From a phage: a stretch of 64,000 nucleotides of DNA. Position numbers and translations under genes: made by a program. Each line of letters opens with the position of its first letter. Position 1 is the stretch's first letter. Location: NCBI GenBank assembly GCA_012112355.1, contig GCA_012112355.1_3028.1. One strand, written 5' to 3'. The notes under the pieces are model-generated. The model had not been told where the DNA came from. It saw only the letters and a list, made by a program, of their open reading frames with translations, and made no database searches. Positions 2,955 through 51,325 of the stretch are shown piece by piece.

Positions 2955-5900
2955 ATGGCCGAGATTAAAAGAAAGTTCAGAGCAGAAGACGGTCTGGACG
3001 CAGGTGGTGATAAAATAATCAACGTAGCTTTAGCTGATCGTACCGTAGGAACTGACGGTGTTAACGTTGATTACTTAATTCAAGAAAACACAGTTCAACA
3101 ATATGATCCAACTCGTGGATATTTAAAAGATTTTGTAATCATTTATGATAACCGCTTTTGGGCTGCTATAAATGATATTCCAAAACCAGCAGGAGCTTTT
3201 AATAGCGGACGCTGGAGAGCATTACGTACCGATGCTAACTGGATTACGGTTTCATCTGGTTCATATCAATTAAAATCTGGTGAAGCTATTTCGGTTAACA
3301 CTGCAGCTGGAAATGACATCACGTTTACTTTACCATCTACTCCAATTGATGGTGATACTATCGTTCTCCAAGATATTGGAGGAAAACCTGGAGTTAACCA
3401 AGTTTTAATTGTAGCTCCAGTGCAAAGTATTGTAAACTTTAGAGGTGAACAAGTACGTTCAGTACTAATGACTCATCCAAAGTCACAGCTAGTTTTAATT
3501 TTTAGTAATCGTCTGTGGCAAATGTATGTTGCTGATTATAGTAGAGAAGCTATAGTTGTAACACCAGCGAATACTTATCAAGCGCAATCCAACGATTTTA
3601 TCGTACGTAGATTTACTTCTGCTGCACCAATTAATATTAAACTTCCGAGATTTGCTAATCATGGCGATATTATTAATTTCGTCGATTTGGATAAATTAAA
3701 TCCTCTTTATCATACAATTGTTACTACATACGATGAAACGACTTCAGTACAAGAAGTTGGAACTCATTCCATTGAAGGCCGTACATCAATTGACGGTTTC
3801 TTGATGTTTGATGATAATGAGAAATTGTGGAGATTGTTTGACGGGGATAGTAAAGCACGTTTACGCGTTATAACAACTAATTCTAATATTCGTCCAAATG
3901 AAGAAGTTATGGTATTTGGTGCGAATAACGGAACAGCTCAGACAATTGAACTTCAGCTTCCGACTGATATTTCTGTTGGTGATACTGTTAAAATTTCCAT
4001 GAATTACATGAGAAAAGGACAAACAGTTAAAATCAAAGCTGCCGGTGAAGATAAAATTGCTTCTTCGGTTCAATTGTTGCAATTCCCAAAACGCTCAGAA
4101 TATCCACCTGAAGCTGAATGGGTTACAGTTCAAGAATTAGTTTTTAACGGTGAAACTAATTATGTTCCAGTTTTACAACTTGCTTATATAGAAGATTCTG
4201 ATGGAAAATACTGGGTTGTGCAACAAAATGTTCCAACCGTAGAAAGAGTAGACTCTTTAAATGATTCTACTAGAGCAAGATTAGGCGTAATAGCTTTAGC
4301 TACACAAGCTCAAGCTAATGTCGATTTAGAAAATTCTCCACAAAAAGAATTAGCAATTACTCCAGAAACGTTAGCTAATCGTACTGCTACTGAAACTCGT
4401 AGAGGTATTGCAAGAATAGCAACTACTGCCCAAGTGAATCAGAACACCACATTCTCTTTTGCAGATGACCTTATCATTACTCCTAAAAAGCTGAATGAAA
4501 GAACTGCTACAGAAACTCGCAGAGGTGTCGCAGAAATTGCTACACAACAGGAAACTAATACAGGTACTGATGATACTACAATCATCACTCCTAAAAAGCT
4601 TCAAGCTCGTCAAGGTTCTGAATCATTATCTGGTATTGTAACTTTTGTATCTACTGCAGGTGCTACTCCGGCTTCTAGCCGCGAATTAAATGGTACCAAC
4701 GTTTATAATAAAAACACTAATAATTTAGTTGTTTCACCTAAAGCTTTGGATCAGTATAAAGCTACTCCAACGCAACAAGGTGCAGTAATTTTAGCAGTTG
4801 AAAGTGAAGTAATTGCTGGACAAAGTCAGCAAGGATGGGCAAATGCTGTTGTAACGCCAGAAACGTTACATAAAAAGACATCAACTGATGGAAGAATTGG
4901 TTTAATTGAAATTGCTACGCAAAGTGAAGTTAATACAGGAACTGATTATACTCGTGCAGTCACTCCTAAAACTTTAAATGACCGTAGAGCAACTGAAAGT
5001 TTAAGTGGTATAGCTGAAATTGCTACACAAGTTGAATTCGACGCAGGCGTCGACGATACTCGTATCTCTACACCATTAAAAATTAAAACCAGATTTAATA
5101 GTACTGATCGTACTTCTGTTGTTGCTCTATCTGGATTAGTTGAATCAGGAACTCTCTGGGACCATTATACCCTTAATATTCTTGAAGCAAATGAGACACA
5201 ACGTGGTACACTTCGTGTAGCTACACAAGTTGAAGCTGCTGCAGGAACACTAGATAATGTTTTAATAACTCCTAAAAAGCTTTTAGGTACTAAATCTACT
5301 GAAGCACAGGAAGGTGTTATTAAAGTTGCAACTCAGTCTGAAACTGTGACTGGAACGTCGGCAAATACTGCTGTATCTCCAAAAAATTTAAAATGGATTG
5401 TGCAGAGTGAACCTACTTGGGCAGCTACTACTGCAATAAGAGGTTTTGTTAAAACTTCATCCGGTTCTATTACATTCGTTGGTAATGATACAGTTGGTTC
5501 AACACAACCTTTAGAATCATATGAAAAAAATAGCTATGCTATATCTCCATATGAATTAAACCGTGTACTTGCTAACTATTTGCCATTGAAAGCTAAAGCC
5601 GTAGATAGTAATTTATTGGATGGTCTAGATTCATCTCAGTTCATTCGTAGGGACATTGCACAGACGGTTAATGGTTCACTAACCTTAACCCAACAAACGA
5701 ATCTGAGTGCCCCTCTTGTATCATCTAGTACTGCTACGTTCGGTGGATCAGTTTCAGCAAATAGTACATTAACTATTTCTAATACTGGAACGACTTCTTC
5801 TCGATTTACATTTGAGAAAGGTCCTGCTTCTGGTAGTAATGCTGATTCTGCATTGTATGTTCGTGTATGGGGTAATAAGTACAGCGGCGGTTCTGATGTA

Positions 5901-6827
5901 ACTCGTGCAACGATTATAGAATTCTCTGATGCTACCGGCTCTCATTTCTATTCTCAAAGAGATACGTCAAATAATGTGTTGTTCAACATTTCAGGTACGA
6001 TGCAATCAGTCAACGCTAACGTTCGTGGTGTTCTGAACGTTACAGGTGTCTCAACGTTTAATAGTTCAGTTACAGCCAATGGTGAATTCATTAGCAAGTC
6101 TGCAAATGCTTTCAGAGCAATAAACGGTGATTATGGATTCTTTATCAGGAATGATGGCGGCAGCACATATTTTATGCTTACTGCATCCGGTGATCAGACC
6201 GGTGGATTTAATGGATTACGTCCATTATCAATTAATAATCAATCCGGTCAGATTACAATTGGTGAAGGCTTAATCATTGCCAAAGGTGCTACTATAAATT
6301 CTGGCGGTTTGACTGTTAACTCGAGAATTCGTTCTCAGGGTACTAAAACATCTGATTTATATACCCGTGCGCCAACATCTGATACTGTAGGATTCTGGTC
6401 AATTGATATTAACGATTCAGCCACTTATAACCAGTTCCCAGGTTATTTTAAAATGGTTGAAAAAACTAATGAAGTGACTGGGCTTCCATACTTAGAACGT
6501 GGCGAAGAAGTTAAATCTCCTGGTACATTGACTCAGTTTGGTAATACACTTGATTCGCTTTACCAAGATTGGATTACTTATCCAACGACGCCAGAAGCGC
6601 GTACCACTCGCTGGACCCGTACATGGCAGAAAACTAAAAACTCTTGGTCAAGTTTTGTTCAGGTATTTGACGGAGGTAACCCTCCTCAACCATCTGATAT
6701 TGGCGCTTTACCATCTGATAATGCTACAATGGGGAATCTTACTATTCGTGATTTCTTACGAATTGGTAATGTTCGCATTATTCCTGACCCAGTGAATAAA
6801 ACTGTTAAATTTGAATGGGTTGAATAA
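2955..6827 (+). CDS. 34: long tail fibre proximal subunit gp34
   Basis: 1290 aa (T4 gp34 is 1289); MAEIKRKFRAEDGLDAGGDKIINVALADRTVGTDGVNVDYL N-terminus; repeated ETRRG-IAEIATQ motifs typical of gp34. Confidence 0.9.
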   Translation: MAEIKRKFRAEDGLDAGGDKIINVALADRTVGTDGVNVDYLIQENTVQQYDPTRGYLKDFVIIYDNRFWAAINDIPKPAGAFNSGRWRALRTDANWITVSSGSYQLKSGEAISVNTAAGNDITFTLPSTPIDGDTIVLQDIGGKPGVNQVLIVAPVQSIVNFRGEQVRSVLMTHPKSQLVLIFSNRLWQMYVADYSREAIVVTPANTYQAQSNDFIVRRFTSAAPINIKLPRFANHGDIINFVDLDKLNPLYHTIVTTYDETTSVQEVGTHSIEGRTSIDGFLMFDDNEKLWRLFDGDSKARLRVITTNSNIRPNEEVMVFGANNGTAQTIELQLPTDISVGDTVKISMNYMRKGQTVKIKAAGEDKIASSVQLLQFPKRSEYPPEAEWVTVQELVFNGETNYVPVLQLAYIEDSDGKYWVVQQNVPTVERVDSLNDSTRARLGVIALATQAQANVDLENSPQKELAITPETLANRTATETRRGIARIATTAQVNQNTTFSFADDLIITPKKLNERTATETRRGVAEIATQQETNTGTDDTTIITPKKLQARQGSESLSGIVTFVSTAGATPASSRELNGTNVYNKNTNNLVVSPKALDQYKATPTQQGAVILAVESEVIAGQSQQGWANAVVTPETLHKKTSTDGRIGLIEIATQSEVNTGTDYTRAVTPKTLNDRRATESLSGIAEIATQVEFDAGVDDTRISTPLKIKTRFNSTDRTSVVALSGLVESGTLWDHYTLNILEANETQRGTLRVATQVEAAAGTLDNVLITPKKLLGTKSTEAQEGVIKVATQSETVTGTSANTAVSPKNLKWIVQSEPTWAATTAIRGFVKTSSGSITFVGNDTVGSTQPLESYEKNSYAISPYELNRVLANYLPLKAKAVDSNLLDGLDSSQFIRRDIAQTVNGSLTLTQQTNLSAPLVSSSTATFGGSVSANSTLTISNTGTTSSRFTFEKGPASGSNADSALYVRVWGNKYSGGSDVTRATIIEFSDATGSHFYSQRDTSNNVLFNISGTMQSVNANVRGVLNVTGVSTFNSSVTANGEFISKSANAFRAINGDYGFFIRNDGGSTYFMLTASGDQTGGFNGLRPLSINNQSGQITIGEGLIIAKGATINSGGLTVNSRIRSQGTKTSDLYTRAPTSDTVGFWSIDINDSATYNQFPGYFKMVEKTNEVTGLPYLERGEEVKSPGTLTQFGNTLDSLYQDWITYPTTPEARTTRWTRTWQKTKNSWSSFVQVFDGGNPPQPSDIGALPSDNATMGNLTIRDFLRIGNVRIIPDPVNKTVKFEWVE

Positions 6828-15456: not shown

Positions 15457-15917
15457 TAGTAAAGGTCCTCAGAGTAAAGTTCTTTTTCATTACCACCACG
15501 TTCAATACGTACTTGTCCAGCGTAAGTTGCAATAATCATTGCTTCTTCACGTGTCCAATAATTACTATATTGGTCAATAAACCCTTGGTCATCATCACAA
15601 ACTTGTTGAGTAACTAATTGAGGTTTAACTACATCTAAAACTTCTGCCATATCTTTAGAATAATGACGAGCACCTGGAATAATAAGAGTTCGTCCATCTT
15701 TTAATTTAAAACGGTTGGCTGCGCAGACAATTCGTCGTTGATACTTTTGGTTTTCATCCCAATACAGAGTCTGCCAACAGATTTCAGGAACTTCGTCTAA
15801 AACATTTTGTTCTGTATATTCACCACCGTAAGAAGCTAATTTAGCAGCCAGACTTTCCGGAGTCTCACGCGACAAAGCTTTATCTAACAGAGCTAAACGT
15901 TCTTTAAAAGTTTTCAT
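15456..15917 (-). CDS. hypothetical early protein
   Basis: 153-aa ORF with stop/start overlap on both sides. Confidence 0.5.
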
Positions 15918-16243
15918 TTAAACCATTCCTTAATACGTTGCCAAATAGATTTTTGTGCTTGTTTATTTACACCAATCGAACGAATAACCGGTTGTGACTG
16001 CTGATATTCTTTATAATCTTCTTTATAGATTTCGTAAGCTGCATCAACAAATGAACTGATCGCTGCCATGTAGTTTTTACGAAGGCCAAATGGCGCGTCA
16101 TTATTTTCACGAATAACCGTATATTGGCCTGCTTTAATCTTTACGATAGTTCCAAGATAAGCTCCATGATACCAGATGTCCCAACCCTCTTGGGTAGGTT
16201 CTGCACAACGACGAAGTTCATTAACAATTTCTAACTTGTTCAT
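15914..16243 (-). CDS. hypothetical early protein
   Basis: 109-aa ORF directly downstream of motA in the same orientation. Confidence 0.5.
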
Positions 16244-24849: not shown

Positions 24850-24879
24850 ATTATACCACATCCTTGTGGTAAAGTAAAC
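24850..24879 (-). promoter_or_regulatory. T4-type early promoter (GTTTAC, 18 nt, TGG-TATAAT) inside the 3' end of gene 39
   Basis: Minus-strand sense GTTTAC-tttaccacaaggatgtgg-TATAAT. Confidence 0.45.
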
Positions 24880-26699
24880 TACTGGCTCATCCATTCTTTA
24901 CGAAGGTCAGCATTATCTCCCATGAGCATTTCAAAAAGCTCTTTCCAGTTCTCAGGAAGTTTAACAACATCATATACCGGATTTTGAATCATCTCACGAT
25001 ATTCAGATTTTTCCAAAGAGCCAAGTCCCTTAATATAACGGATGCTATGTTTAGGTAGAGCATCTTTAGCACTCTCATATTCAGCGACTGTATAAAACCA
25101 TTCTTGTTTTTTACCGACCTGAGCGATGATTACAGGAGTTTTGACAAAGCGAATTCTTCCTTGCTCAAACAATTCTGGCCAATTACTAAAAAATCCGAGC
25201 AGAGAAGGATAAATGCTTCCTAGACCATCATGGTCAGCATCAGTCATAATAGCGATATTATGATAATTCAAGTTTTCAGCTTTTTCACCGAGAACTAATC
25301 CAGTGATTGCGCAAATATCAAATAGTTCTTTGTTTTTAAGCATATCTGCATAAGACATACCCCAACTGTTGAGAACTTTACCACGTAATGGATAACCACC
25401 ATGAAGTTCTTTATCACGAACATCAATAAGATATCCGATAGCAGAATCACCCTCAGTCAAGAAAAGAGTAGTGTCAGCATCTTTACCGCAAAGATTCGCT
25501 TTGATATGTTTATGAACCTTAGCTTTAGAAGCCTTTTTAGCTGCTTTAGTTTCTGCTGCTTTTTCTGCCGCCAATTTACGAGCCAAAGCAGCTTCGATAA
25601 TCGGCATTAGAATTGCTTCATTATTTAGAATAGCGCGTGAAATCTTTTTAGCATCAAGTTGAATATGACTACGGATTTCACCAAATGGAGAAGTCAAACG
25701 CTCTTTAGTTTGAGAATCAAATCGCATGTTTTTCATATCACGAACAAACATAACGATAGTCAAACATTCTTTGACACGTGCTTTAGTTACATCAATTTTG
25801 AACTTACGTTTGATTTGTGGAATAAGGTCTTCACAAATATCATCCATAACACAGTCAATGTGATGGCCACCATTCTTAGTGTGAATGTTATTGACGTACG
25901 TCAACTGACGAAAACCATCCGGTGAACGACCAACCGCAATAGAACAATTTTCTTGTTCTTGAACAATAGCATGTTCATCATACTGTCGTGCATATTTCTT
26001 AAAATTGCCCTGAACCTTTTTACCATTAAAGGTAAATTGAATATCAGGATAAACAACAGCAAGTGTTTGGAGACGATCTAGTGTAATGTCAAGATAAACT
26101 TGGGACAGCTCATTAGTTTCAAATGACATAAAATCAGGAATGAAAGTAACACGGGTTCCTTTCCATTTTCCAGGAATATCTTCCCATGATTTATTTTCCA
26201 TGCCGTTTGAACAACGAACTACAATATTATTTTGACCATCACCAGTTTCACCGACAAACATCACAGAAAAAATGTTTGTCAAACTAGAACCAACACCATT
26301 CATACCGCCAGTGACGCGTTCTTTATCATCACCGAAGTTACCACCCGCTTTTGGAATAGTCCAAGCAGCAACTGGACCAGGAATTTCTTCACCGGTAGGT
26401 GTTTTAACCATCGCTTGTGGAATACCGCGACCGTTATCTTCAACTGTTACCTGATTATTTTTAATGGTAACATTAATTTTATTCGCGAATTTAAACTTAG
26501 TACGAATACCTTCATCGACTGAGTTATCGATAATTTCATCAATAAGCTTAACAAGACCAGGTACATACTGAACACTTTCCCATTTACCAAACAGAAAGCG
26601 CTCATGCATTTCATTAGCAGAAGAGCCAATGTACATGCCACTACGCTTTTTGATATGTTCAATATCGCTCAGAATTTTAATTTCATTCTTAATCATCAC
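24879..26699 (-). CDS. 39: DNA topoisomerase II large subunit (GyrB-like), single uninterrupted ORF equivalent to T4 genes 39 plus 60
   Basis: 606 aa; MMIKNEIKILSDIEHIKKRSGMYIGSS N-terminus. T4 splits this into gp39 and gp60 with a translational bypass; here it is one continuous ORF. Confidence 0.85.
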   Translation of the reverse strand: MMIKNEIKILSDIEHIKKRSGMYIGSSANEMHERFLFGKWESVQYVPGLVKLIDEIIDNSVDEGIRTKFKFANKINVTIKNNQVTVEDNGRGIPQAMVKTPTGEEIPGPVAAWTIPKAGGNFGDDKERVTGGMNGVGSSLTNIFSVMFVGETGDGQNNIVVRCSNGMENKSWEDIPGKWKGTRVTFIPDFMSFETNELSQVYLDITLDRLQTLAVVYPDIQFTFNGKKVQGNFKKYARQYDEHAIVQEQENCSIAVGRSPDGFRQLTYVNNIHTKNGGHHIDCVMDDICEDLIPQIKRKFKIDVTKARVKECLTIVMFVRDMKNMRFDSQTKERLTSPFGEIRSHIQLDAKKISRAILNNEAILMPIIEAALARKLAAEKAAETKAAKKASKAKVHKHIKANLCGKDADTTLFLTEGDSAIGYLIDVRDKELHGGYPLRGKVLNSWGMSYADMLKNKELFDICAITGLVLGEKAENLNYHNIAIMTDADHDGLGSIYPSLLGFFSNWPELFEQGRIRFVKTPVIIAQVGKKQEWFYTVAEYESAKDALPKHSIRYIKGLGSLEKSEYREMIQNPVYDVVKLPENWKELFEMLMGDNADLRKEWMSQ

Positions 26700-26765: not shown

Positions 26766-27035
26766 TTATTTAAAACGAATAGTTGAATCCTTAAAGAACA
26801 GCCCAGAACATACTGTTCCTTCTACTTTCTGCCCGGTAGGTCCAATAGCACGAAATCCAGTATGTTGGAAATCATTTTCAGAGCAACCGAACCAGTTATA
26901 TCCAGTGATTTCAATATTAGTAAAACCACTTGAAGACAAAACTTTAGTTGCATTATCAGCATCAGTACATCCTACTAAAAACACTGCTAATACTAATGCT
27001 GCGATAGAACGATTAATATATTTCATAATTTTCAC
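26766..27035 (-). CDS. predicted lipoprotein
   Basis: 89 aa; MKIMKYINRSIAALVLAVFLVGC signal peptide with lipobox. Confidence 0.55.
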   Translation of the reverse strand: MKIMKYINRSIAALVLAVFLVGCTDADNATKVLSSSGFTNIEITGYNWFGCSENDFQHTGFRAIGPTGQKVEGTVCSGLFFKDSTIRFK

Positions 27036-41614: not shown

Positions 41615-41908
41615 TTATTCGCCTGTGATTTCGGTTACGATATTTTTGTTATTAAAGTTTTTATCGCAATACAGAACATAATTATACTGCATTACACCAC
41701 CAGACTTAAGTTGTTTTTGCACTTCAGCTTTCATTTCAGGACGATCGCGCTCAACGATATTCATAATATCCGCTTCAATTTGAGTTTCAACTTCAGTCTG
41801 ATCTGCAGTCATAGACCATTCACACAAATCTTTATCATATCCTGCCATAGCAGGCTGAGCAGCACAAGAAGCCAAAGTAAAAATTGTAGCAAAAATAAAT
41901 TTTTTCAT
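41615..41908 (-). CDS. sp: periplasmic Spackle protein Sp
   Basis: 97 aa as T4 Sp; MKKFIFATIFTLASCAAQPAMA signal peptide. Confidence 0.8.
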   Translation of the reverse strand: MKKFIFATIFTLASCAAQPAMAGYDKDLCEWSMTADQTEVETQIEADIMNIVERDRPEMKAEVQKQLKSGGVMQYNYVLYCDKNFNNKNIVTEITGE

Positions 41909-45501: not shown

Positions 45502-46350
45502 TTAATCAACTGCTATCGGATGAATAGCATTAAACTTATGAAATGCTTCTGATTTTTCTTTGCGCGAAACACACATGCGAAGAACCTTTAATGGCTCGTC
45601 TTCTTCACCCAACGATTTTCGTTTTTCAATATTCGATGTTTTCCAACGAGCTTGCTCTGGAAACTCTCTATTGATTTGCTCGAGCGCTCTATTATGTTTA
45701 GAATTACTACGAATTGAACTGCACCCGCCAGGAGCTTGTGCTTTTCCAGATACAACCAGATATTTGAACAAGGCCAAATGCGGATAACCTTGATTAATTA
45801 AATTGAGAAATGCATACATATCTTCGCATAAATCAATTTTTCCATACCCAATTTGTTCTGTCGTAAGTTTTCCGAGGTCATACCATGTATTCGTGAATCC
45901 ATATGAATTTTCACGATAATTACCCCAAGATGAAGTAATTTTAAAAATAGGTAGACGAGCATGGCCATGATAATACCCACAATCCATGGCATCCTCAACA
46001 TATTGAATCAATTCATAGAACTGTTCACGGGTTAATTGATTGACTTTATCTACACAACGACGGTCATCTCTTTTTCGCATTGAACTCATACGAATAGTAG
46101 TATCATCGTCAATCATCCAGATTCGTTGACCTGCATACATATCAGTAATTGCTTTACGAGTACCAGCAATTCCATTTACATCGTCAGGAATAGTTATAAT
46201 TTTAGCTCTAGACCCATAGGCATCATAATAAGCTTTTTCTTCATGTTCACGCACTACAATATGGGGTTCATAATTAGTCGGAAACATATCAAGGGCAGAA
46301 ACTGCCCCGACACGCTGATAACTTGGAATTACGAATTGAATCATTTCCAC
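45502..46350 (-). CDS. DNA glucosyltransferase at the bgt locus; probably the T2/T6-type beta-glucosyl-HMC-alpha-glucosyltransferase rather than T4 beta-gt
   Basis: 282 aa between uvsX and 42. T4 beta-gt is 351 aa with a different N-terminus, so this is not T4 beta-gt; family assignment is by position and size. Confidence 0.5.
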   Translation of the reverse strand: MEMIQFVIPSYQRVGAVSALDMFPTNYEPHIVVREHEEKAYYDAYGSRAKIITIPDDVNGIAGTRKAITDMYAGQRIWMIDDDTTIRMSSMRKRDDRRCVDKVNQLTREQFYELIQYVEDAMDCGYYHGHARLPIFKITSSWGNYRENSYGFTNTWYDLGKLTTEQIGYGKIDLCEDMYAFLNLINQGYPHLALFKYLVVSGKAQAPGGCSSIRSNSKHNRALEQINREFPEQARWKTSNIEKRKSLGEEDEPLKVLRMCVSRKEKSEAFHKFNAIHPIAVD

Positions 46351-47081
46351 TCACCTTTATAGTCTTTTTTCACAATATGAGTTTCGCCAGTATTCCACCA
46401 ATGATCAACCAAGTAAAAATGACGAGAATATACATGAAGACTTCCAACATTCCATATAATAGAACCTGCTTTATACTGACGAGTTGAATCGCCTGCATTC
46501 AAATCAGATACTAATTTATCTAATACGTATTTTTGCCATGCATAATCATTACGGAATCCGAAGACCACGTCATTTGAGCGCATGCTTACTACTGCATTGA
46601 CTTTCTTATCACGAATCAGGTACTGTACTGTATTAGTACACATGAAATCTGACATACCATCTTTATTGTAGTCAAATTGCATGGATGGACGAGTATAAAT
46701 CATGATACCACGCCGAGAATCAGGATTTTGACCAAGTTCAGCTAAACACATATCATACTGGGCATAGTTATCTTCTGACCAAATAGCCCAACCATAATTC
46801 GAGTTAATTTCGCCTTTAGAAGATGCTACCTGCTGCCAAATCTTTGGTGTTTCACCTGGAATATCTTTAACAAACAAGCTCTTAGATTTATACCATTCAA
46901 GTTCGCGCTGAATGTATTCATCATTAAGAGCACCAAAAATAAACGGTTCATCTGCTACAAATGATGCGCCAATAATTTCAATAGTTTTAACACCAGTTTT
47001 ATCAACTACGAAATCTTTTTCTTTTAATGCAAGCCCCAAATGAAGACGGATTTCTTCAACTGTCATAGAGTCACTAATCAT
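46341..47081 (-). CDS. 42: dCMP hydroxymethylase gp42
   Basis: 246 aa as T4 gp42; thymidylate-synthase-like fold. Confidence 0.85.
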   Translation of the reverse strand: MISDSMTVEEIRLHLGLALKEKDFVVDKTGVKTIEIIGASFVADEPFIFGALNDEYIQRELEWYKSKSLFVKDIPGETPKIWQQVASSKGEINSNYGWAIWSEDNYAQYDMCLAELGQNPDSRRGIMIYTRPSMQFDYNKDGMSDFMCTNTVQYLIRDKKVNAVVSMRSNDVVFGFRNDYAWQKYVLDKLVSDLNAGDSTRQYKAGSIIWNVGSLHVYSRHFYLVDHWWNTGETHIVKKDYKGEWK

Positions 47082-47085
47082 TTAA

Positions 47086-47238
47086 ACCTCAATTGATACA
47101 TTCATATTTAACTTGTAACAGTAATAAACCCCAACCTAAAATAATAGTTGGAATCATAAGAGGAACCGTTACACTATAGTATATACTTATTATAATCATC
47201 AAGATTAAAAGCAACACTGTTATAATTTTGCTTTTCAT
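47086..47238 (-). CDS. small membrane peptide (~49 aa), below track cutoff
   Basis: Manual translation MKSKIITVLLLILMIIISIYYSVTVPLMIPTIILGWGLLLLQVKYECIN; coordinates approximate (my hand indexing and the track disagree by 1 nt here). Confidence 0.3.
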
Positions 47239-47486
47239 TCCTTCTCTCTGATGATAATTACCTGATTTGGTTGTGCAGACTTTTTAGTTTCACCCGCAAT
47301 TGACCAAATAAATGTAATAAACCAACCAATAATTGACCAGTTAAACAGTAAAGATGTGAAAAAGATTCCTACTGTCGATTTTGACCCACGCATCAAAGCA
47401 ATAAACCATGGAAGCATGTATATAATAATAGCCAACACACCTGAAACTAAAACCATAAAAATTGAACCTGCTACTAAAGTTTCCAT
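47235..47486 (-). CDS. imm: superinfection immunity protein Imm
   Basis: 83 aa as T4 Imm; METLVAGSIFMVLVSGVLAIIIYMLPWFIALMRGSKSTVGIFFTSLLFNWSIIGWFITFIWSIAGE. Confidence 0.85.
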   Translation of the reverse strand: METLVAGSIFMVLVSGVLAIIIYMLPWFIALMRGSKSTVGIFFTSLLFNWSIIGWFITFIWSIAGETKKSAQPNQVIIIREKE

Positions 47487-47493
47487 ATTTTCC

Positions 47494-47874
47494 TCACTTA
47501 GTCAAATTTTTTACGCATGAATTATAAGAATTCACTACATACTCCATCGGAGCATTTTTACCAGTACGCCATTGGTAATTATTGGCCCAATTAGCCCAAA
47601 GCTCGGCGCAGTAGTTTTCAATTTTTTCTTCGCGTGTAATTACATCCGAATTACGATATGCTTGAGCAGATTCATCTGGACGAATAGCTTCGTCAAAATT
47701 CGCCTGCATTTGTTCGACTGTTTGCTTTGGAGCTTCTTTATAACACTTGACATTAGGATTATAAAATTTGCTTGAACAGTTTACAATTTTTCCTGCATCA
47801 GACTGATTTACTACCGGTCCTTGAGCTACACAACCAGTAAGACCTAATGCAATAACCAAAATAGCGATTTTCAT
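47494..47874 (-). CDS. predicted lipoprotein
   Basis: 126 aa; MKIAILVIALGLTGC lipobox; four further Cys. Confidence 0.55.
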   Translation of the reverse strand: MKIAILVIALGLTGCVAQGPVVNQSDAGKIVNCSSKFYNPNVKCYKEAPKQTVEQMQANFDEAIRPDESAQAYRNSDVITREEKIENYCAELWANWANNYQWRTGKNAPMEYVVNSYNSCVKNLTK

Positions 47875-47884
47875 AATAATTTCC

Positions 47885-48121
47885 TCAAATGCAAGTAGTA
47901 ATTACTCCAGTAGTGCTTATGCAGGTATTACCCATTTGCACACCTAAAGATCCATTTGTATTCACATGAAGATTATCATCAATTTTAACTGATATTTTAC
48001 CATTAGTGTGAATAACAGTGCTAGATTCAATCACAGGTTGAGTATCATTTTCAACACTAACAAATGGAACTGCTGCTAATGCAACTAAACAAACTGCTAA
48101 GCATCCCATAACAATTTTCAT
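47885..48121 (-). CDS. predicted secreted small protein
   Basis: Track ORF 47885..48175; likely start at the internal ATG (MKIVMGCLAVCLVALAAVPFVSVEN signal-like N-terminus), because a promoter element overlaps the N-terminal extension. Confidence 0.45.
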   Translation of the reverse strand: MKIVMGCLAVCLVALAAVPFVSVENDTQPVIESSTVIHTNGKISVKIDDNLHVNTNGSLGVQMGNTCISTTGVITTCI

Positions 48122-48153
48122 TTTATTCTCCAAATCCGTATTAGTTGATAGTT

Positions 48154-48183
48154 GTATAGTACCATGGAAGAACATTCTTGTAA
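48154..48183 (-). promoter_or_regulatory. T4-type early promoter
   Basis: GTTTAC-aagaatgttcttccatgg-TACTAT on the minus strand. Confidence 0.45.
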
Positions 48184-48271
48184 ACAGTTTTGTGAAAATT
48201 TTTTAGGGAATTCTAAATGTCCAGAATCATCTGTTTTTCATAAGTATAGATTTATATTACTTGTATGAAAA

Positions 48272-48289
48272 AGGGACCCGGAGGTCCCT
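48272..48289 (-). terminator. hairpin (agggacc-cggag-gtccct) downstream of gene 43
   Basis: Inverted repeat just 3' of the gene 43 stop on the minus strand. Confidence 0.45.
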
Positions 48290-48301
48290 AGATTTATTCT
48301 A

Positions 48302-50998
48302 TCAGCCAAACAGGAAGTCTAACGAAGCTTTTTCTTCATAGTCCATACCAGCCGATTCACACATGCCCGCAAGCGGTTTAACAAACGATTTTTGGAACAA
48401 AGTTGAGTAGTCAATCCAAGACAGTACGTCAGAACGAATTTCTTTTGGAAGTTCTGTACCCGACGGCCAAGCAATGCATTTGTCACCAAATGGATTTCCT
48501 TCACGCAATGGAAGAACCATTACTTTATTTCCATCCAAAATTGGAGCTACACCTAAACCGCTAACAGCTCGACGATAAGTTAGCACACCACGAATATGGA
48601 ACGGACATTTAAATCCTGGCCAACCTTTATCATCATATTTCGCTATATCGTTCGCAGTTTTTACTTCAGCAATAACTTTATAGTCAAGTTGACGATATTC
48701 TTTCTCGAAGTTCTTGTAATATTCTTGGACAGACTCTTCACCTTCCTGAAGAATACGACGAATACTTTCTTCGAGAGCTTCTTGGACCGCTTTAGGCGTT
48801 GAACTCTGCTGAGTTTCCATACCCATGATTTTTAGATGTGGTTCAGCAAAACGCTTATCTTCCATATCATAAACGTTCAGAGCATAACGCTTTTTCGCTT
48901 TCCAAAATCCACCAACGCCCTTTGAACCAAGTGGAGGGCAAGAAATAGCTTCACGGTCCATATGCATCAGATGCTCGCGGTTATTCATATAATCACATAA
49001 CTCACGATATGCAACATCAATCATAGGTTCCATCTTTTTCTTACCGAACTGATTCATGAATTCAACTAAATCGTTCTGCTCTTTGAATCGGTCAAGACCA
49101 ACTTTTTCAATAACTTTATCTACACAAACATATACCGAATCAGTATCACCTGCTGCAATGAAATCTTCGCCATTAGTTCCGCATACTTTATTCAGATATT
49201 CATTAATTTTACGAGCAATCCACTGAATACCAACTTGGCCGAAAATTGTGATAGCAGTAGCATTTCGCAAATCATAGTAACGGAAATGAATATTACCAAG
49301 AGCACCATAAAGACTGTTAATAAGAATTTTACGGTTCAGCTGATTTGTGTTAGCAAGTGTAGCTGCTTTTTCACATTCTTCGATCAGACTATTAAGAACA
49401 GATTCAGTGTAATTCGATAATTCATTTAAGAAATCATCACTGAACTTAACATATCGTTCAACTTCAGGTTTAGTTGAACAAGACCCTGCGCCTTTCATAA
49501 TAATCTTTTTAATAGCTTCGGCATTCATTTCTTCAGCGAACATTTTCTTTTTCCAATCTTTACGCTGGAAAAATACTTTAGCGATTTCCTTTGGAATGAT
49601 ACCTTCTTGATGCTTATCATACATCCATCCATTCGGAGAACAAGAATATTCATCACTTGGTTTAGGAGCTGTTCCTGCGATATATTCATGAATTGGATGA
49701 ACTTTAAACTGACCACGAATAGTCTCAGGACTAATGTTAACCTGACGAATAATGCTCGGATACAGAGACGTCAAGTCAAAACTCATAATATATCGACGAG
49801 CAATTGGTTTAGGTTCAAACACAAATGCACCCGGAAAACTCTGTTTAACATGCGAACCTTGTTGAGGAATAACTTTATGTTCACCTTTCAATGAGTTAAA
49901 AATAATAGCATCCCAGGTTTTAATAGGACTCATTACGCCAGAAAAAGGCATTTTAGCGTAATAAGACATACTTAAAACTAGATCGATAAACCCGCGAATT
50001 TTATCAATTGCTTGAACTGATTCTACGTCAATGATGTTATAACTAATGTATCGTTGATGATTAGTCTCACGAAGTTTATTAATAGGACCGTCGTATGGTA
50101 ATTTACCTTTTTTGGTTTCATGCTGAGCAACTGATTCCAAAGAGAATGACGGCAAATTAGTAAATGCGAATTTCTTATACAAATCTAAATAATCAAGAAT
50201 AGATACGCCATCAATAGAATAAATTTCTTTGCTACCGTACATATTTTGGATAAGTTTAGATTTTACTCGACCGATTGGAGAGAAGCGTTTCATACTACGT
50301 TCACCGAGAACCATTTTAACGCGATTCATGATATACGGAACGTCAAATCCCTCAATATTCCAACCAGTAAAAATAGCAGGTCGTTTCTGTTCCCAAAGAT
50401 TAATATATTCCATGAGCATATCACGCTCATTATCGAATGGCATATAAATTACTCGGTCAAGAATTTCTTGAGGAACTTCATCACCACCTTCACAGTCAAG
50501 CTTAGCAGCTAACTTTGCATCCCATTTTGATACTGAACCATACATTGAATTCAAAAGGTCGAAAACATAAAAACGATCATCAATTGAATCGTAATGAGTG
50601 ATAGCATCAATTTCATATTCAGCTTTCATTGGGTCCGGAAATTTATCACCAGTAACCTCAATGTCGCAGTTAGCTACACGAACAAATTTTCGGTCATAAA
50701 CAATTTCTGAACCATACGTATCACTGATATAAGCGAGTTTAAAATCGTTCATACCGAGAGCTTCGAGACCGATGTCTTCCATTCGCTTCATCCAATCTCG
50801 AGCATCTTTCATTGATGGAAATTTTTGAGGAGCGCAGTTTTTACCATAGATGTCTTTGTATTTTGACTCTTCCTTACAATGCCTAAACATAGTCGGAAGA
50901 TATTCTACTTCACGAGTACGTTCCTTTCCGTTTTCATCAATATAACGTTCAACAATGTTATTTCCAACTGTTTCGATAGAGATATAAAATTCTTTCAT
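48302..50998 (-). CDS. 43: DNA polymerase gp43 (family B)
   Basis: 898 aa as T4 gp43; MKEFYISIETVGNNIVERYIDENGKERTREVEYLPTMFRHCKEESKYKDIYG. Confidence 0.95.
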   Translation of the reverse strand: MKEFYISIETVGNNIVERYIDENGKERTREVEYLPTMFRHCKEESKYKDIYGKNCAPQKFPSMKDARDWMKRMEDIGLEALGMNDFKLAYISDTYGSEIVYDRKFVRVANCDIEVTGDKFPDPMKAEYEIDAITHYDSIDDRFYVFDLLNSMYGSVSKWDAKLAAKLDCEGGDEVPQEILDRVIYMPFDNERDMLMEYINLWEQKRPAIFTGWNIEGFDVPYIMNRVKMVLGERSMKRFSPIGRVKSKLIQNMYGSKEIYSIDGVSILDYLDLYKKFAFTNLPSFSLESVAQHETKKGKLPYDGPINKLRETNHQRYISYNIIDVESVQAIDKIRGFIDLVLSMSYYAKMPFSGVMSPIKTWDAIIFNSLKGEHKVIPQQGSHVKQSFPGAFVFEPKPIARRYIMSFDLTSLYPSIIRQVNISPETIRGQFKVHPIHEYIAGTAPKPSDEYSCSPNGWMYDKHQEGIIPKEIAKVFFQRKDWKKKMFAEEMNAEAIKKIIMKGAGSCSTKPEVERYVKFSDDFLNELSNYTESVLNSLIEECEKAATLANTNQLNRKILINSLYGALGNIHFRYYDLRNATAITIFGQVGIQWIARKINEYLNKVCGTNGEDFIAAGDTDSVYVCVDKVIEKVGLDRFKEQNDLVEFMNQFGKKKMEPMIDVAYRELCDYMNNREHLMHMDREAISCPPLGSKGVGGFWKAKKRYALNVYDMEDKRFAEPHLKIMGMETQQSSTPKAVQEALEESIRRILQEGEESVQEYYKNFEKEYRQLDYKVIAEVKTANDIAKYDDKGWPGFKCPFHIRGVLTYRRAVSGLGVAPILDGNKVMVLPLREGNPFGDKCIAWPSGTELPKEIRSDVLSWIDYSTLFQKSFVKPLAGMCESAGMDYEEKASLDFLFG

Positions 50999-51078: not shown

Positions 51079-51315
51079 TTAAATTTCTACTGTACAACGC
51101 GATATAACGGACTTGCCATCTTTATTTGTGGTTTTGATAATCGCATGAAATGCGCGTTGGCGTGGGTAAACTAATCGTTGGAATTCTTTTTGGAATTCTA
51201 TTTGTTTATCTTCCGGGAGATCAAAAACCAGTTGGGTAGAAGACAGACCATATGTTTGTTTTAGATTTTCGAATATTAGAAAAGCTTCGGTAAACTGAAT
51301 CTCTGATTGTGTCAT
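51079..51315 (-). CDS. hypothetical protein between regA and gene 43
   Basis: Track ORF 51079..51366 overlaps regA by 40 nt; the internal ATG (MTQSEIQFTEAFLIFENLKQ...) gives ~78 aa. Confidence 0.4.
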   Translation of the reverse strand: MTQSEIQFTEAFLIFENLKQTYGLSSTQLVFDLPEDKQIEFQKEFQRLVYPRQRAFHAIIKTTNKDGKSVISRCTVEI

Positions 51316-51325
51316 ATAATTTACC

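What the first reader, a model, noticed from the sequence alone, without database searches (positions are those of the whole stretch)
47086..48121. Cluster of envelope-targeted small proteins around imm
Imm (membrane), a ~49-aa membrane peptide, a 126-aa lipoprotein (LTGC lipobox) and a secreted ~79-aa protein lie in a row between genes 42 and 43. Together with Sp and the lipoprotein at 26766-27035 they form a set of periplasm or membrane-directed early proteins, plausibly extending the Imm/Sp superinfection-exclusion system.
Basis: inference. Interest (0 to 1): 0.4.

Follow-up and report, generated by a model that had tools for sequence, protein, structure and literature searches.

The report
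Envelope-protein gene row around phage imm
A T4-like phage carries four small membrane- or periplasm-directed early genes in a row around the known superinfection-immunity gene imm. Only one neighbour, the lipoprotein Imm.1, shows comparative evidence of belonging with imm, and its function is still untested.

Summary
The window is a Tequatrovirus, 99.7% identical to Shigella phage JK38. Four tightly packed minus-strand genes lie between DNA polymerase gene 43 and dCMP hydroxymethylase gene 42.

- **ORF78** (78 aa) has a signal peptide or signal anchor.
- **Imm.1** (126 aa) has an L-T-G-C lipobox and belongs to DUF5481/phrog_1754.
- **Imm** (83 aa) belongs to PF14373.
- **42.1/Y02C** (49 aa) is a predicted two-helix hairpin.

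A run of four envelope proteins among 73 neighbouring genes has a permutation p of about 0.002.

Published work shows that Imm alone excludes T4 by binding the tape-measure protein.

- **Imm.1 has a real tie to imm.** Its family sits beside imm in seven T4-like genera and in three metagenomic contigs. In Mosigvirus it moved with imm to lie next to sp. It is under strong purifying selection (dN/dS 0.01-0.04), and the T4 orthologue is an early protein that is dispensable in the lab.
- **ORF78 fills a variable slot.** The slot is empty in T4 and T6 and holds an unrelated ORF in T2.
- **42.1 follows the 43-42 interval, not imm.**

No fold or sequence relative suggests a mechanism for Imm.1. The genes are long catalogued, so this is a modest, testable lead.

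The parts
48272..48289 (-). Intrinsic terminator just after the stop codon of gene 43 (GGGACC-loop-GGTCCC followed by a T run)
   Evidence: Conserved in T4, DalCa and CT01. Annotated as a terminator in DalCa.
48156..48184 (-). T4 early-type promoter (GTTTACA, 17 nt, TG-n-TACTAT) that drives the small-gene row
   Evidence: Almost invariant in the four-phage alignment. In T4 the same promoter and ribosome-binding site lead directly into imm.1.
47885..48121 (-). ORF78. An accessory protein with an N-terminal signal peptide or signal anchor (MKIVMGCLAVCLVALAAVPFV) and a roughly 55-aa Thr/Asn/Val-rich C-terminal domain with two Cys (C66, C77). It sits in a variable cassette slot.
   Evidence: phrog_4189 at E 4e-30. 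Found in 326 phage records, against about 502 Tequatrovirus records with Imm.1. dN/dS 0.29-0.40, with dN 0.08-0.15. In-frame 7-aa duplications occur in the hydrophobic region. Absent in T4 and T6, replaced in T2.
47494..47874 (-). imm.1. A lipoprotein precursor with lipobox L12-T13-G14-C15 and Val at +2, predicted to be sorted to the outer membrane. The C-terminal part is a helical hairpin carrying the two family-invariant Cys (helix 81-104 and helix 110-125).
   Evidence: PF17578 at 237 bits and phrog_1754 at E 1.5e-43. Lipobox pattern match. Family alignments. AF2 pLDDT 82-87 for residues about 81-126 only. dN/dS 0.01-0.04. T4 orthologue is early RNA and early protein (PMC9697503 supplements).
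47235..47486 (-). imm. The inner-membrane superinfection immunity protein, in its 83-aa form. In-frame stops upstream rule out the 94-aa extension that is possible in T4.
   Evidence: PF14373 at E 7.7e-16 and phrog_1039. 98.8% identical to T4 Imm. Upstream stops. Mechanism from the preprint.
47089..47238 (-). 42.1 / Y02C-type 49-aa micro-protein, a predicted two-helix membrane hairpin. Its start overlaps the imm stop codon (ATGA).
   Evidence: phrog_3610 at E 5e-26. Present but unannotated in T4 RefSeq, 46/49 identical. Named 42.1 in T4T. Invariant residues Y20, P26, MIPT 28-31, W36, Q42, C47 and N49 across genera. A homologue is tagged PF26865 Phage_T4_Y02C.
46341..47081 (-). Gene 42 (dCMP hydroxymethylase), the downstream neighbour and probably on the same transcript
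   Evidence: PF00303. 97% identical to T4 gp42.
41615..41908 (-). sp (Spackle), a periplasmic inhibitor of the gp5 lysozyme. The finding cites it, but it is not physically linked to the row in this genome.
   Evidence: PF25676 at E 5.8e-45 and phrog_1586. Function from PMC7677548.
26766..27026 (-). 86-aa lipoprotein (LVGC lipobox) upstream of topoisomerase gene 39. The finding cites it. Function unknown and unlinked to the row.
   Evidence: phrog_902 at E 6e-37 with no Pfam match.

Best explanation
The gene 43-42 interval holds one early transcription unit: the gene 43 terminator, an early promoter, then four small genes that each have their own ribosome-binding site. All four products are directed to the cell envelope.

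- **Imm (shown elsewhere).** Imm is the inner-membrane protein that stops superinfecting T-even phages by binding their tape-measure protein. It is sufficient on its own.
- **Imm.1 (anatomy shown, function inferred).** Imm.1 is made as a lipoprotein precursor. I predict it is lipidated at Cys15 and sent to the inner leaflet of the outer membrane, because it has no Asp at +2. It would then present a small domain stabilised by disulfide bonds, with a C-terminal helical hairpin, in the periplasm. It has stayed next to imm across most T4-like enterobacterial phages and moved with it in Mosigvirus. I therefore infer it is an accessory, outer-membrane-tethered layer of the same early envelope protection against incoming phage. 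Its target would be something conserved, such as the tail tip, the tape-measure protein or a host envelope component, rather than a phage-specific receptor.
- **ORF78 (inferred).** ORF78 is a fast-evolving accessory periplasmic or anchored protein sitting in a swap-in/swap-out slot behind the promoter.
- **42.1 (inferred).** 42.1 is a conserved two-helix micro-protein that belongs to the 43-42 interval rather than to imm.

Neither ORF78 nor 42.1 is demonstrably part of the exclusion system.
For: **Anatomy and identity:**

**Promoter and terminator:**

**Lipobox:**
- Pattern match in the window.
- Conserved across the family.
- Cys15 nearly invariant (over 90%) in 38 sequences.
- No member listed or 48 has Asp at +2.
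- Two further Cys are invariant in the 38-sequence alignment.

**Synteny of phrog_1754 with imm:**
- Tequatrovirus.
- Mosigvirus, in the order imm.1-imm-sp.
- S16, Boboto and PS2, with the lipoprotein upstream of imm.
- IME08 and SP18, with it downstream.
- Three metagenomic contigs.
- All eight family members match phrog_1754 over their full length.
- 135 Klebsiella phage records carry Imm and 135 carry the lipoprotein.

**Selection:** imm.1 dN/dS is 0.01-0.04, like imm and gene 43.

**Expression and dispensability of T4 Imm.1:**
- Early RNA and early protein.
- Knock-down is 'Not Fit', as expected for a function that matters only in competition.

**Against a receptor-specific target:** Imm.1 is 97-98% identical in T2, T4, T6 and the window. 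These phages use different receptors (established knowledge).

**ORF78 slot variability:**

**42.1 independent of imm:**
Against: - No experiment links Imm.1, ORF78 or 42.1 to exclusion.
- Imm works alone from a plasmid.
- T4-like phages keep much ancestral gene order, so adjacency could be inherited synteny. The only clear joint relocation is the Mosigvirus event.
- EcS1 keeps the lipoprotein beside gene 43 with no imm in a 20-kb region.
- Only the last 50 or so residues of the structure model are confident. Neither fold nor sequence search finds a relative, so the mechanism has no structural support.
- Lipidation, outer-membrane sorting and disulfide bonds are predicted, not shown.
Confidence: 0.45

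Rival explanations
1. There is no functional module. The 43-42 interval is a tolerant, non-essential stretch behind an early promoter where unrelated small accessory genes accumulate. The four envelope proteins share only a transcript, and Imm.1 does something unrelated to superinfection.
For: - The slot upstream of imm.1 holds different content in T4 and T6 (empty), T2 (a non-hydrophobic 83-aa ORF), the window (ORF78) and CT01 (a remnant).
- PS2 has three extra ORFs between gene 43 and the lipoprotein.
- EcS1 has the lipoprotein without a nearby imm.
- Imm is self-sufficient.
- imm.1 knock-down has no fitness cost.
Against: - Imm.1 and imm stay adjacent although their order flips in Dhaka- and Gaprivervirus.
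- They moved together in Mosigvirus, leaving 42.1 behind.
- Four envelope proteins in a row is unlikely by chance (p about 0.002).
- The very strong purifying selection on imm.1 shows it has an important function of some kind.
Confidence: 0.3
2. Imm.1 is an Llp/Cor-type lipoprotein. It binds the phage's outer-membrane receptor from the periplasmic side and blocks adsorption of further phage.
For: It is a small early lipoprotein with conserved Cys pairs, like T5 Llp (PMC9586334). One family member gives a weak hit to the Cor family phrog_1119 at E 8e-4.
Against: - The Cor hit covers only residues 1-40, the signal peptide, and no stretch passes on its own.
- Imm.1 is 97-98% identical in T2, T4 and T6, which use different receptors (established knowledge).
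- It is adjacent to imm, not to receptor-binding-protein genes.
- Fold search finds nothing.
Confidence: 0.05
3. Imm.1, and possibly ORF78, protect or remodel the infected cell's envelope for the phage's own cycle. Examples are resistance to lysis from without, support of lysis inhibition, or stabilising the link between outer membrane and peptidoglycan. They would not block DNA entry.
For: - Sp, which sits next to imm.1-imm in Mosigvirus, has a role of this kind as an inhibitor of the gp5 lysozyme.
- The predicted anatomy of Imm.1 is a lipid anchor, a low-confidence N-terminal part and a small helical domain. Lipoproteins that reach partners across the periplasm have this build (my inference, from general knowledge).
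Against: No similarity to Spackle (PF25676 matches only sp) or to any lysozyme inhibitor. No phenotype data.
Confidence: 0.17
4. ORF78 and/or the 49-aa ORF are not real genes but chance open frames in AT-rich DNA.
For: They are short. T4 RefSeq annotates neither, and T4 lacks ORF78 altogether.
Against: - ORF78 has dN/dS 0.29-0.40 over 24-40 substitutions. It has only in-frame indels among intact copies, its own GGAG site and a PHROG family.
- The 49-aa ORF is kept at 43-55% identity across genera with ten invariant residues. It matches phrog_3610, and a homologue is tagged with Pfam family PF26865.
Confidence: 0.03

Closest known systems
T4 imm / imm.1 locus (NC_000866: 42, imm, imm.1, 43)
   Same: Same genes in the same order and on the same strand. 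Imm is 98.8% identical, Imm.1 98% and the 49-aa ORF 94%. The terminator, early promoter and ribosome-binding site are the same.
   Different: The window has an extra gene, ORF78, between the promoter and imm.1. The T4 junction looks like a deletion or insertion between two ATGAAAAT repeats. The window's Imm cannot use the 94-aa upstream start available in T4. Downstream of gene 42 the window has the T2/T6-type beta-glucosyl-HMC-alpha-glucosyltransferase rather than T4 beta-gt.
Mosigvirus (RB69/PhAPEC2-type) imm.1-imm-sp block
   Same: Imm.1 (34% identical, LTGC lipobox) lies immediately upstream of imm (64% identical).
   Different: The pair lies between dmd and sp, not between genes 43 and 42, so all three envelope genes are contiguous there. 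The 42.1-like peptide stayed behind in the gene 43 region, next to arabinose-5-phosphate isomerase.
Phage T5 Llp and the Cor family (superinfection-exclusion lipoproteins)
   Same: Small phage-encoded lipoproteins made early in lytic infection, facing the periplasm from the outer membrane, with an intramolecular disulfide (PMC9586334). Imm.1 has the same predicted targeting and conserved Cys pairs.
   Different: There is no sequence or fold similarity. Llp and Cor sit next to the receptor-binding-protein gene and are receptor-specific. Imm.1 sits next to imm and is nearly identical in phages with different receptors.
T4 Spackle (gp61.3)
   Same: An early, Sec-exported, small periplasmic protein with disulfide bonds that acts against superinfecting phage (PMC7677548). 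It is adjacent to imm.1-imm in Mosigvirus.
   Different: A different family: PF25676 matches only the sp gene at 41615-41908. Spackle is soluble after signal peptidase I cleavage, whereas Imm.1 has a lipobox.

Membership tests
Imm_superinfect (PF14373), T4 Imm | Pfam match above the gathering score, plus a small hydrophobic multi-helix membrane protein | tested here: met
   58.2 bits against a cut-off of 27.9. phrog_1039 at E 3.6e-32. 98.8% identical to T4 Imm.
Imm_superinfect (PF14373), T4 Imm | Excludes superinfecting T-even phage by binding the tape-measure protein gp29 | not testable with these tools
   Shown for T4 Imm in bioRxiv 10.64898/2026.03.06.709160. Inferred here from 98.8% identity.
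DUF5481 (PF17578) / phrog_1754 (Imm.1 family) | Full-length profile match | tested here: met
   236.7 bits against a cut-off of 27, covering profile positions 1-103 of 103. phrog_1754 at E 1.5e-43.
Bacterial lipoproteins (signal peptidase II substrates) | Positive n-region, hydrophobic h-region, then lipobox [LVI][ASTVI][GAS]C with the Cys at about position 15-35 | tested here: met
   Imm.1 reads M-K-IAILVIALG-L-T-G-C15 and matches a DOLOP-type pattern. The Cys is nearly invariant (over 90%) in 38 family members.
Bacterial lipoproteins (signal peptidase II substrates) | Actual lipidation, globomycin-sensitive processing and outer-membrane sorting (no Asp at +2) | not testable with these tools
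   The +2 residue is Val (Cys-Val-Ala-Gln). No member listed or 48 has Asp at +2. Localisation is a prediction from the E. coli +2 rule (established knowledge).
Sec signal peptide (signal peptidase I substrate), for ORF78 | n-, h- and c-regions with small residues at -3 and -1 | tested here: inconclusive
   MK is followed by a 19-residue h-region and then an acidic stretch. This fits an N-in, C-out orientation. An A14-L15-A16|A17 site exists, but it is changed in variants (ALVAV in P0028) and the h-region carries 7-aa duplications. A cleaved peptide and a signal anchor cannot be told apart without SignalP or an experiment. No canonical lipobox: VMGC7 comes too early and LAVC11 has Val at -1.
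Llp / Cor superinfection-exclusion lipoproteins | Sequence homology to Cor/Llp | tested here: not met
   Only one family member hits phrog_1119, at E 8e-4, over residues 1-40 (the signal peptide), and no stretch passes on its own. The window's Imm.1 gives no hit.
Llp / Cor superinfection-exclusion lipoproteins | Receptor specificity: the gene is linked to the receptor-binding-protein gene and the protein varies with the receptor used | tested here: not met
   Imm.1 is flanked by gene 43/ORF78 and imm. It is 97-98% identical in T2, T4 and T6.
T4 Spackle (PF25676) | Pfam match | tested here: not met
   None of the four cluster proteins matches it. Only the sp gene at 41615-41908 does.
Phage_T4_Y02C (PF26865) / phrog_3610 (42.1 micro-protein) | Profile match, plus the conserved P-x-MIPT...W...Q-x-K-[YF]-x-C-x-N motif | tested here: met
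   phrog_3610 at E 5e-26. Motif invariant in 7 sequences from 6 lineages. PF26865 is tagged on the homologue in L020. The local Pfam copy returned no PF26865 match for the window protein.
Known anti-phage defence proteins (PADLOC-DB) | Any profile match | tested here: not met
   No match for 42.1, Imm.1 or ORF78. Imm gives only a weak 2TM-TIR hit at E 0.039.

The most novel reading that the evidence does not exclude
The Imm.1-family lipoprotein is a so-far unrecognised third component of T-even superinfection exclusion. It would be tethered to the outer membrane and engage the incoming tail tip or tape-measure protein in the periplasm, or hand it to Imm. Together, Imm.1 (outer membrane), Sp (periplasm) and Imm (inner membrane) would then form a layered barrier across the envelope. 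This barrier would be conserved across enterobacterial Straboviridae.
Probability: 0.15. Interest if true: 0.6.

Novelty: new member of a known kind. Interest (0 to 1): 0.3.

Why it matters
Imm and Sp have been the only known T-even exclusion factors for about 50 years. The Imm mechanism, binding the tape-measure protein, was reported only in 2026. Imm.1 is a strictly conserved early lipoprotein that travels with imm. If it contributes, the model of how infected cells shut the door on later phage would need an outer-membrane component. A small protein family of unknown function (27 clusters at 50% identity among 1.84 billion representative proteins) would also gain a role.

If Imm.1 does not contribute, the row is simply a set of catalogued accessory genes. 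The practical value here is narrowing four candidates to one, and showing that the receptor-blocking model is unlikely.

Tried and rejected
1. **Structure route for Imm.1.** I ran two AlphaFold2 predictions, with 25 and 38 sequences. Mean pLDDT was 52 and 59, and only the C-terminal helical hairpin was confident. Foldseek against PDB and BFVD returned only self or homologue hits and generic helices, all at E above 0.5. A profile search of PDB sequences found nothing credible. No fold-based function can be claimed.
2. **The Cor-family hit.** It proved to be a signal-peptide match.
3. **Other libraries.** PADLOC, NCBIfam and Rfam gave nothing relevant.
4. **Paralogues.** None of the four proteins has a paralogue elsewhere in the window.
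5. **First word-indexed homologue search.** It found only 3 near-identical Imm.1 proteins. The family became visible only with an alignment of phage-derived members and the exhaustive profile search.
6. **Literature.** No paper in the library discusses T4 imm.1 or DUF5481. It appears only in supplementary tables. Cornett 1974 (PMC355299), which covers residual exclusion in imm sp double mutants, is not held.
7. **ORF78 as a lipoprotein.** I rejected this for the window's allele because it has no canonical lipobox. One duplicated variant (P0036) does create L-A-A-C and is labelled a lipoprotein by UniRef.
Full report
**What the window is.**
The 1.5 kb around the finding is 99.7% identical to Shigella phage JK38 and at least 95% identical to about 400 other Tequatrovirus genomes. 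The finding lies on the minus strand between dCMP hydroxymethylase gene 42 (46341-47081) and DNA polymerase gene 43 (48302-50998). Downstream of gene 42 is a T2/T6-type beta-glucosyl-HMC-alpha-glucosyltransferase.

**The observation.**
Four small ORFs fill the interval.
- **ORF78**, 47885-48121, 78 aa.
- **imm.1**, 47494-47874, 126 aa.
- **imm**, 47235-47486, 83 aa.
- **A 49-aa ORF**, 47089-47238.

Each has a GGAG or GAGG ribosome-binding site. The imm stop overlaps the 49-aa ORF's start (ATGA). A terminator follows gene 43 (48289-48272). A T4 early-type promoter (GTTTACA, 17 nt, TG-n-TACTAT, 48184-48156) precedes ORF78. Both are conserved in T4, DalCa and CT01. JK38 and phage 107 annotate the same four CDS.

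- **Imm** matches PF14373.
- **Imm.1** matches DUF5481 at 237 bits and phrog_1754. Its N-terminus, MKIAILVIALGLTG|C, satisfies a DOLOP-type lipoprotein pattern. Apart from one spurious 40-aa TTG ORF, only Sp and the 26766 ORF also satisfy it in the whole window.
- **The 49-aa ORF** (phrog_3610) has MKSK followed by two hydrophobic stretches, which predicts a hairpin.
- **ORF78** (phrog_4189) has MK, a 19-residue hydrophobic stretch and then an acidic segment. It is therefore exported or anchored with its C-terminus outside the cytoplasm.

By a hydropathy criterion, 7 of 73 CDS in the surrounding 41 kb have a strongly hydrophobic segment. A run of four arises in 0.2% of permutations. This test was chosen after seeing the cluster.

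**Are the small ORFs real genes?**
I compared the window with five other Tequatroviruses.

| Gene | dN/dS | Note |
|---|---|---|
| imm.1 | 0.01-0.04 | as constrained as imm and gene 43 |
| ORF78 | 0.29-0.40 | dN 0.08-0.15, 20-40 times faster than imm.1 at the protein level |
| 49-aa ORF | 0.27-0.78 | very few substitutions |

ORF78 variants differ by in-frame 7-aa duplications in the hydrophobic region. Across genera the 49-aa ORF keeps ten invariant residues: Y20, P26, MIPT 28-31, W36, Q42, C47 and N49. T4 RefSeq does not annotate it, but it is present there at 46/49 identity. T4T calls it 42.1. A homologue carries the Pfam tag PF26865, Phage_T4_Y02C.

**What published work adds.**
- Imm expressed alone from a plasmid excludes T4. 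It binds the helical-bundle domain of the tape-measure protein gp29 (bioRxiv 10.64898/2026.03.06.709160).
- Spackle inhibits the gp5 lysozyme in the periplasm (PMC7677548).
- T4 Imm.1 (P18057) is classed as early RNA and early protein in a time-resolved omics study (PMC9697503 supplements).
- Its CRISPRi-ART knock-down is 'Not Fit', and its function is listed as unknown (PMC11879866 supplements).
- No held paper discusses imm.1 or DUF5481.

**Comparative genomics, the main new evidence.**

*Imm.1.* Imm.1 belongs to a small lipoprotein family. A profile search of 1.84 billion representative proteins finds 27 clusters. Nearly all have an L-[TSAV]-G-C lipobox. None of the members listed has Asp at +2. 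Two further Cys are invariant in a 38-sequence alignment.

Its position relative to imm:

| Lineage | Position of the lipoprotein gene |
|---|---|
| Tequatrovirus | immediately upstream of imm |
| Gelderlandvirus S16 | immediately upstream |
| Jiaodavirus Boboto | immediately upstream |
| Muldoonvirus PS2 | immediately upstream |
| Dhakavirus IME08 | immediately downstream |
| Gaprivervirus SP18 | downstream, one micro-ORF away |
| Three metagenomic contigs | downstream |
| Mosigvirus PhAPEC2 | pair moved out of the 43-42 interval; order is now dmd, imm.1, imm, sp |

All eight phage members match phrog_1754 over their full length. Record counts agree with co-occurrence. 135 Klebsiella phage records carry Imm and 135 carry the Boboto-type lipoprotein. 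Counting all three lipoprotein types gives 657 + 148 + 132 records, against 1002 records with Imm, some of which are not T4-like.

The exception is Kagamiyamavirus EcS1. It keeps the lipoprotein after gene 43, and it keeps 42.1 and sp, but it has no imm in the 20 kb from srd to gene 44.

*The 42.1 peptide.* It is translationally coupled to imm in Tequatrovirus, SP18 and one metagenomic lineage. In Mosigvirus and EcS1 it stays in the gene 43 region, coupled to arabinose-5-phosphate isomerase. It therefore follows the interval and not imm.

*ORF78.* It occurs in 326 records, against about 502 Tequatrovirus records with Imm.1.
- T4 and T6 lack it.
- The T4 junction joins the same promoter and ribosome-binding site directly to imm.1, at an ATGAAAAT shared by both genes.
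- T2 has an unrelated, non-hydrophobic 83-aa ORF in the slot.
- CT01 has a scrambled remnant with a partial imm.1 duplication.

ORF78 is a cassette in a recombination-prone slot.

**Mechanism.**
Shown:
- Imm's identity.
- The operon-like layout.
- The lipobox and export signals at sequence level.
- Early expression of the T4 orthologue of Imm.1.

Inferred for Imm.1:
- It is lipidated and sorted to the outer membrane, following the E. coli +2 rule.
- It carries a periplasmic domain whose only confidently modelled part is a helical hairpin, helices 81-104 and 110-125, at pLDDT 82-87. This hairpin holds the two family-invariant Cys.

Imm.1 is 97-98% identical in T2, T4, T6 and the window, yet those phages use different receptors. 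An Llp/Cor-type receptor block is therefore unlikely. The single Cor-family hit is only a signal peptide. A conserved target is more plausible: the tail tip, the tape-measure protein or a host envelope component. No structural or sequence relative supports any specific target.

My estimates:
- About 45% that Imm.1 is an accessory layer of the early anti-superinfection or envelope-protection function.
- About 30% that the adjacency has no functional meaning.
- About 17% that Imm.1 serves the phage's own envelope management, such as lysis from without or lysis inhibition.
- About 5% that it blocks the receptor.

**Comparison with what is known, and novelty.**
The locus is the T4 42-imm-imm.1-43 locus plus one accessory gene. 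All four genes are already present in hundreds of deposited genomes, mostly labelled 'hypothetical'. The kind of system, phage-encoded envelope proteins that exclude later phage, is well known from Imm, Sp, Llp, Cor and Ltp. If Imm.1 acts in exclusion, it would be a new family within that kind. It fails the sequence and receptor-linkage tests for Llp/Cor membership.

**Verdict.**
- Interest is modest (0.3).
- The useful outcome is a single, well-defined candidate and a clear genetic test.

Noticed in passing
window 47875-48200; L001 5010-5130 (T4); L023 (T6); L024 443-798 (T2); L016 1009-1846 (CT01): The slot between the early promoter and imm.1 is a swap site. It is empty in T4 and T6, holds ORF78 here, and holds an unrelated 83-aa ORF in T2. 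In CT01 it is a scrambled mosaic: the first 36 codons of imm.1, an ORF78 fragment, a second copy of the promoter's 3' part, then intact imm.1. The T4 and window junctions share ATGAAAAT, the first 8 bases of both ORF78 and imm.1.
   Followed up: partly
window 48065-48105 (hydrophobic region of ORF78); proteins P0030, P0036, P0037: Some ORF78 alleles carry one or two in-frame 7-aa (21-bp) duplications of CLVALAA in the hydrophobic N-terminus. In P0036 this creates an L-A-A-C lipobox, and UniRef labels that allele a lipoprotein.
   Followed up: partly
window 47487-47540: In-frame stop codons lie just upstream of the imm ATG. The 94-aa N-terminally extended Imm that is possible in T4, and was used for cryo-EM in the 2026 preprint, therefore cannot be made by this phage. 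This is consistent with the 83-aa form being the functional one.
   Followed up: yes
L001 4637-5014 (T4 imm.1, NP_049661.1): The current T4 RefSeq record names imm.1 'iduronate sulfatase'. Nothing in the sequence supports this: the protein is 125 aa, matches DUF5481 and is a lipoprotein. It looks like an automated mis-annotation.
   Followed up: partly
window 41615-41908 (sp): Spackle's signal peptide also matches the lipoprotein pattern (T-L-A-S-C15). However, the mature protein is reported as 75 aa, which means cleavage after A-M-A22 by signal peptidase I (PMC7677548).
   Followed up: no
window 51079-51318: An extra 78-aa, non-hydrophobic ORF (MTQSEIQFTE...) lies between regA and gene 43. 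JK38 annotates it too. T4 has only a 78-bp gap there.
   Followed up: no
window 24879-26699: The topoisomerase large-subunit gene 39 is a single ORF of about 605 aa. It appears to be the unsplit form, unlike T4's separate genes 39 and 60 (recalled from memory, not checked here).
   Followed up: no
window 26766-27026: An 86-aa lipoprotein (LVGC, then Thr-Asp-Ala-Asp) lies upstream of gene 39. It belongs to phrog_902, has no Pfam family and its function is unknown. It is a second uncharacterised early lipoprotein in this phage.
   Followed up: partly
L022 (EcS1) 5649-5972 and 15586-16002: Kagamiyamavirus EcS1 has sp, the 42.1-like peptide and an Imm.1-family lipoprotein, but no detectable imm in the 20-kb early region examined. 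The rest of that genome was not searched.
   Followed up: partly
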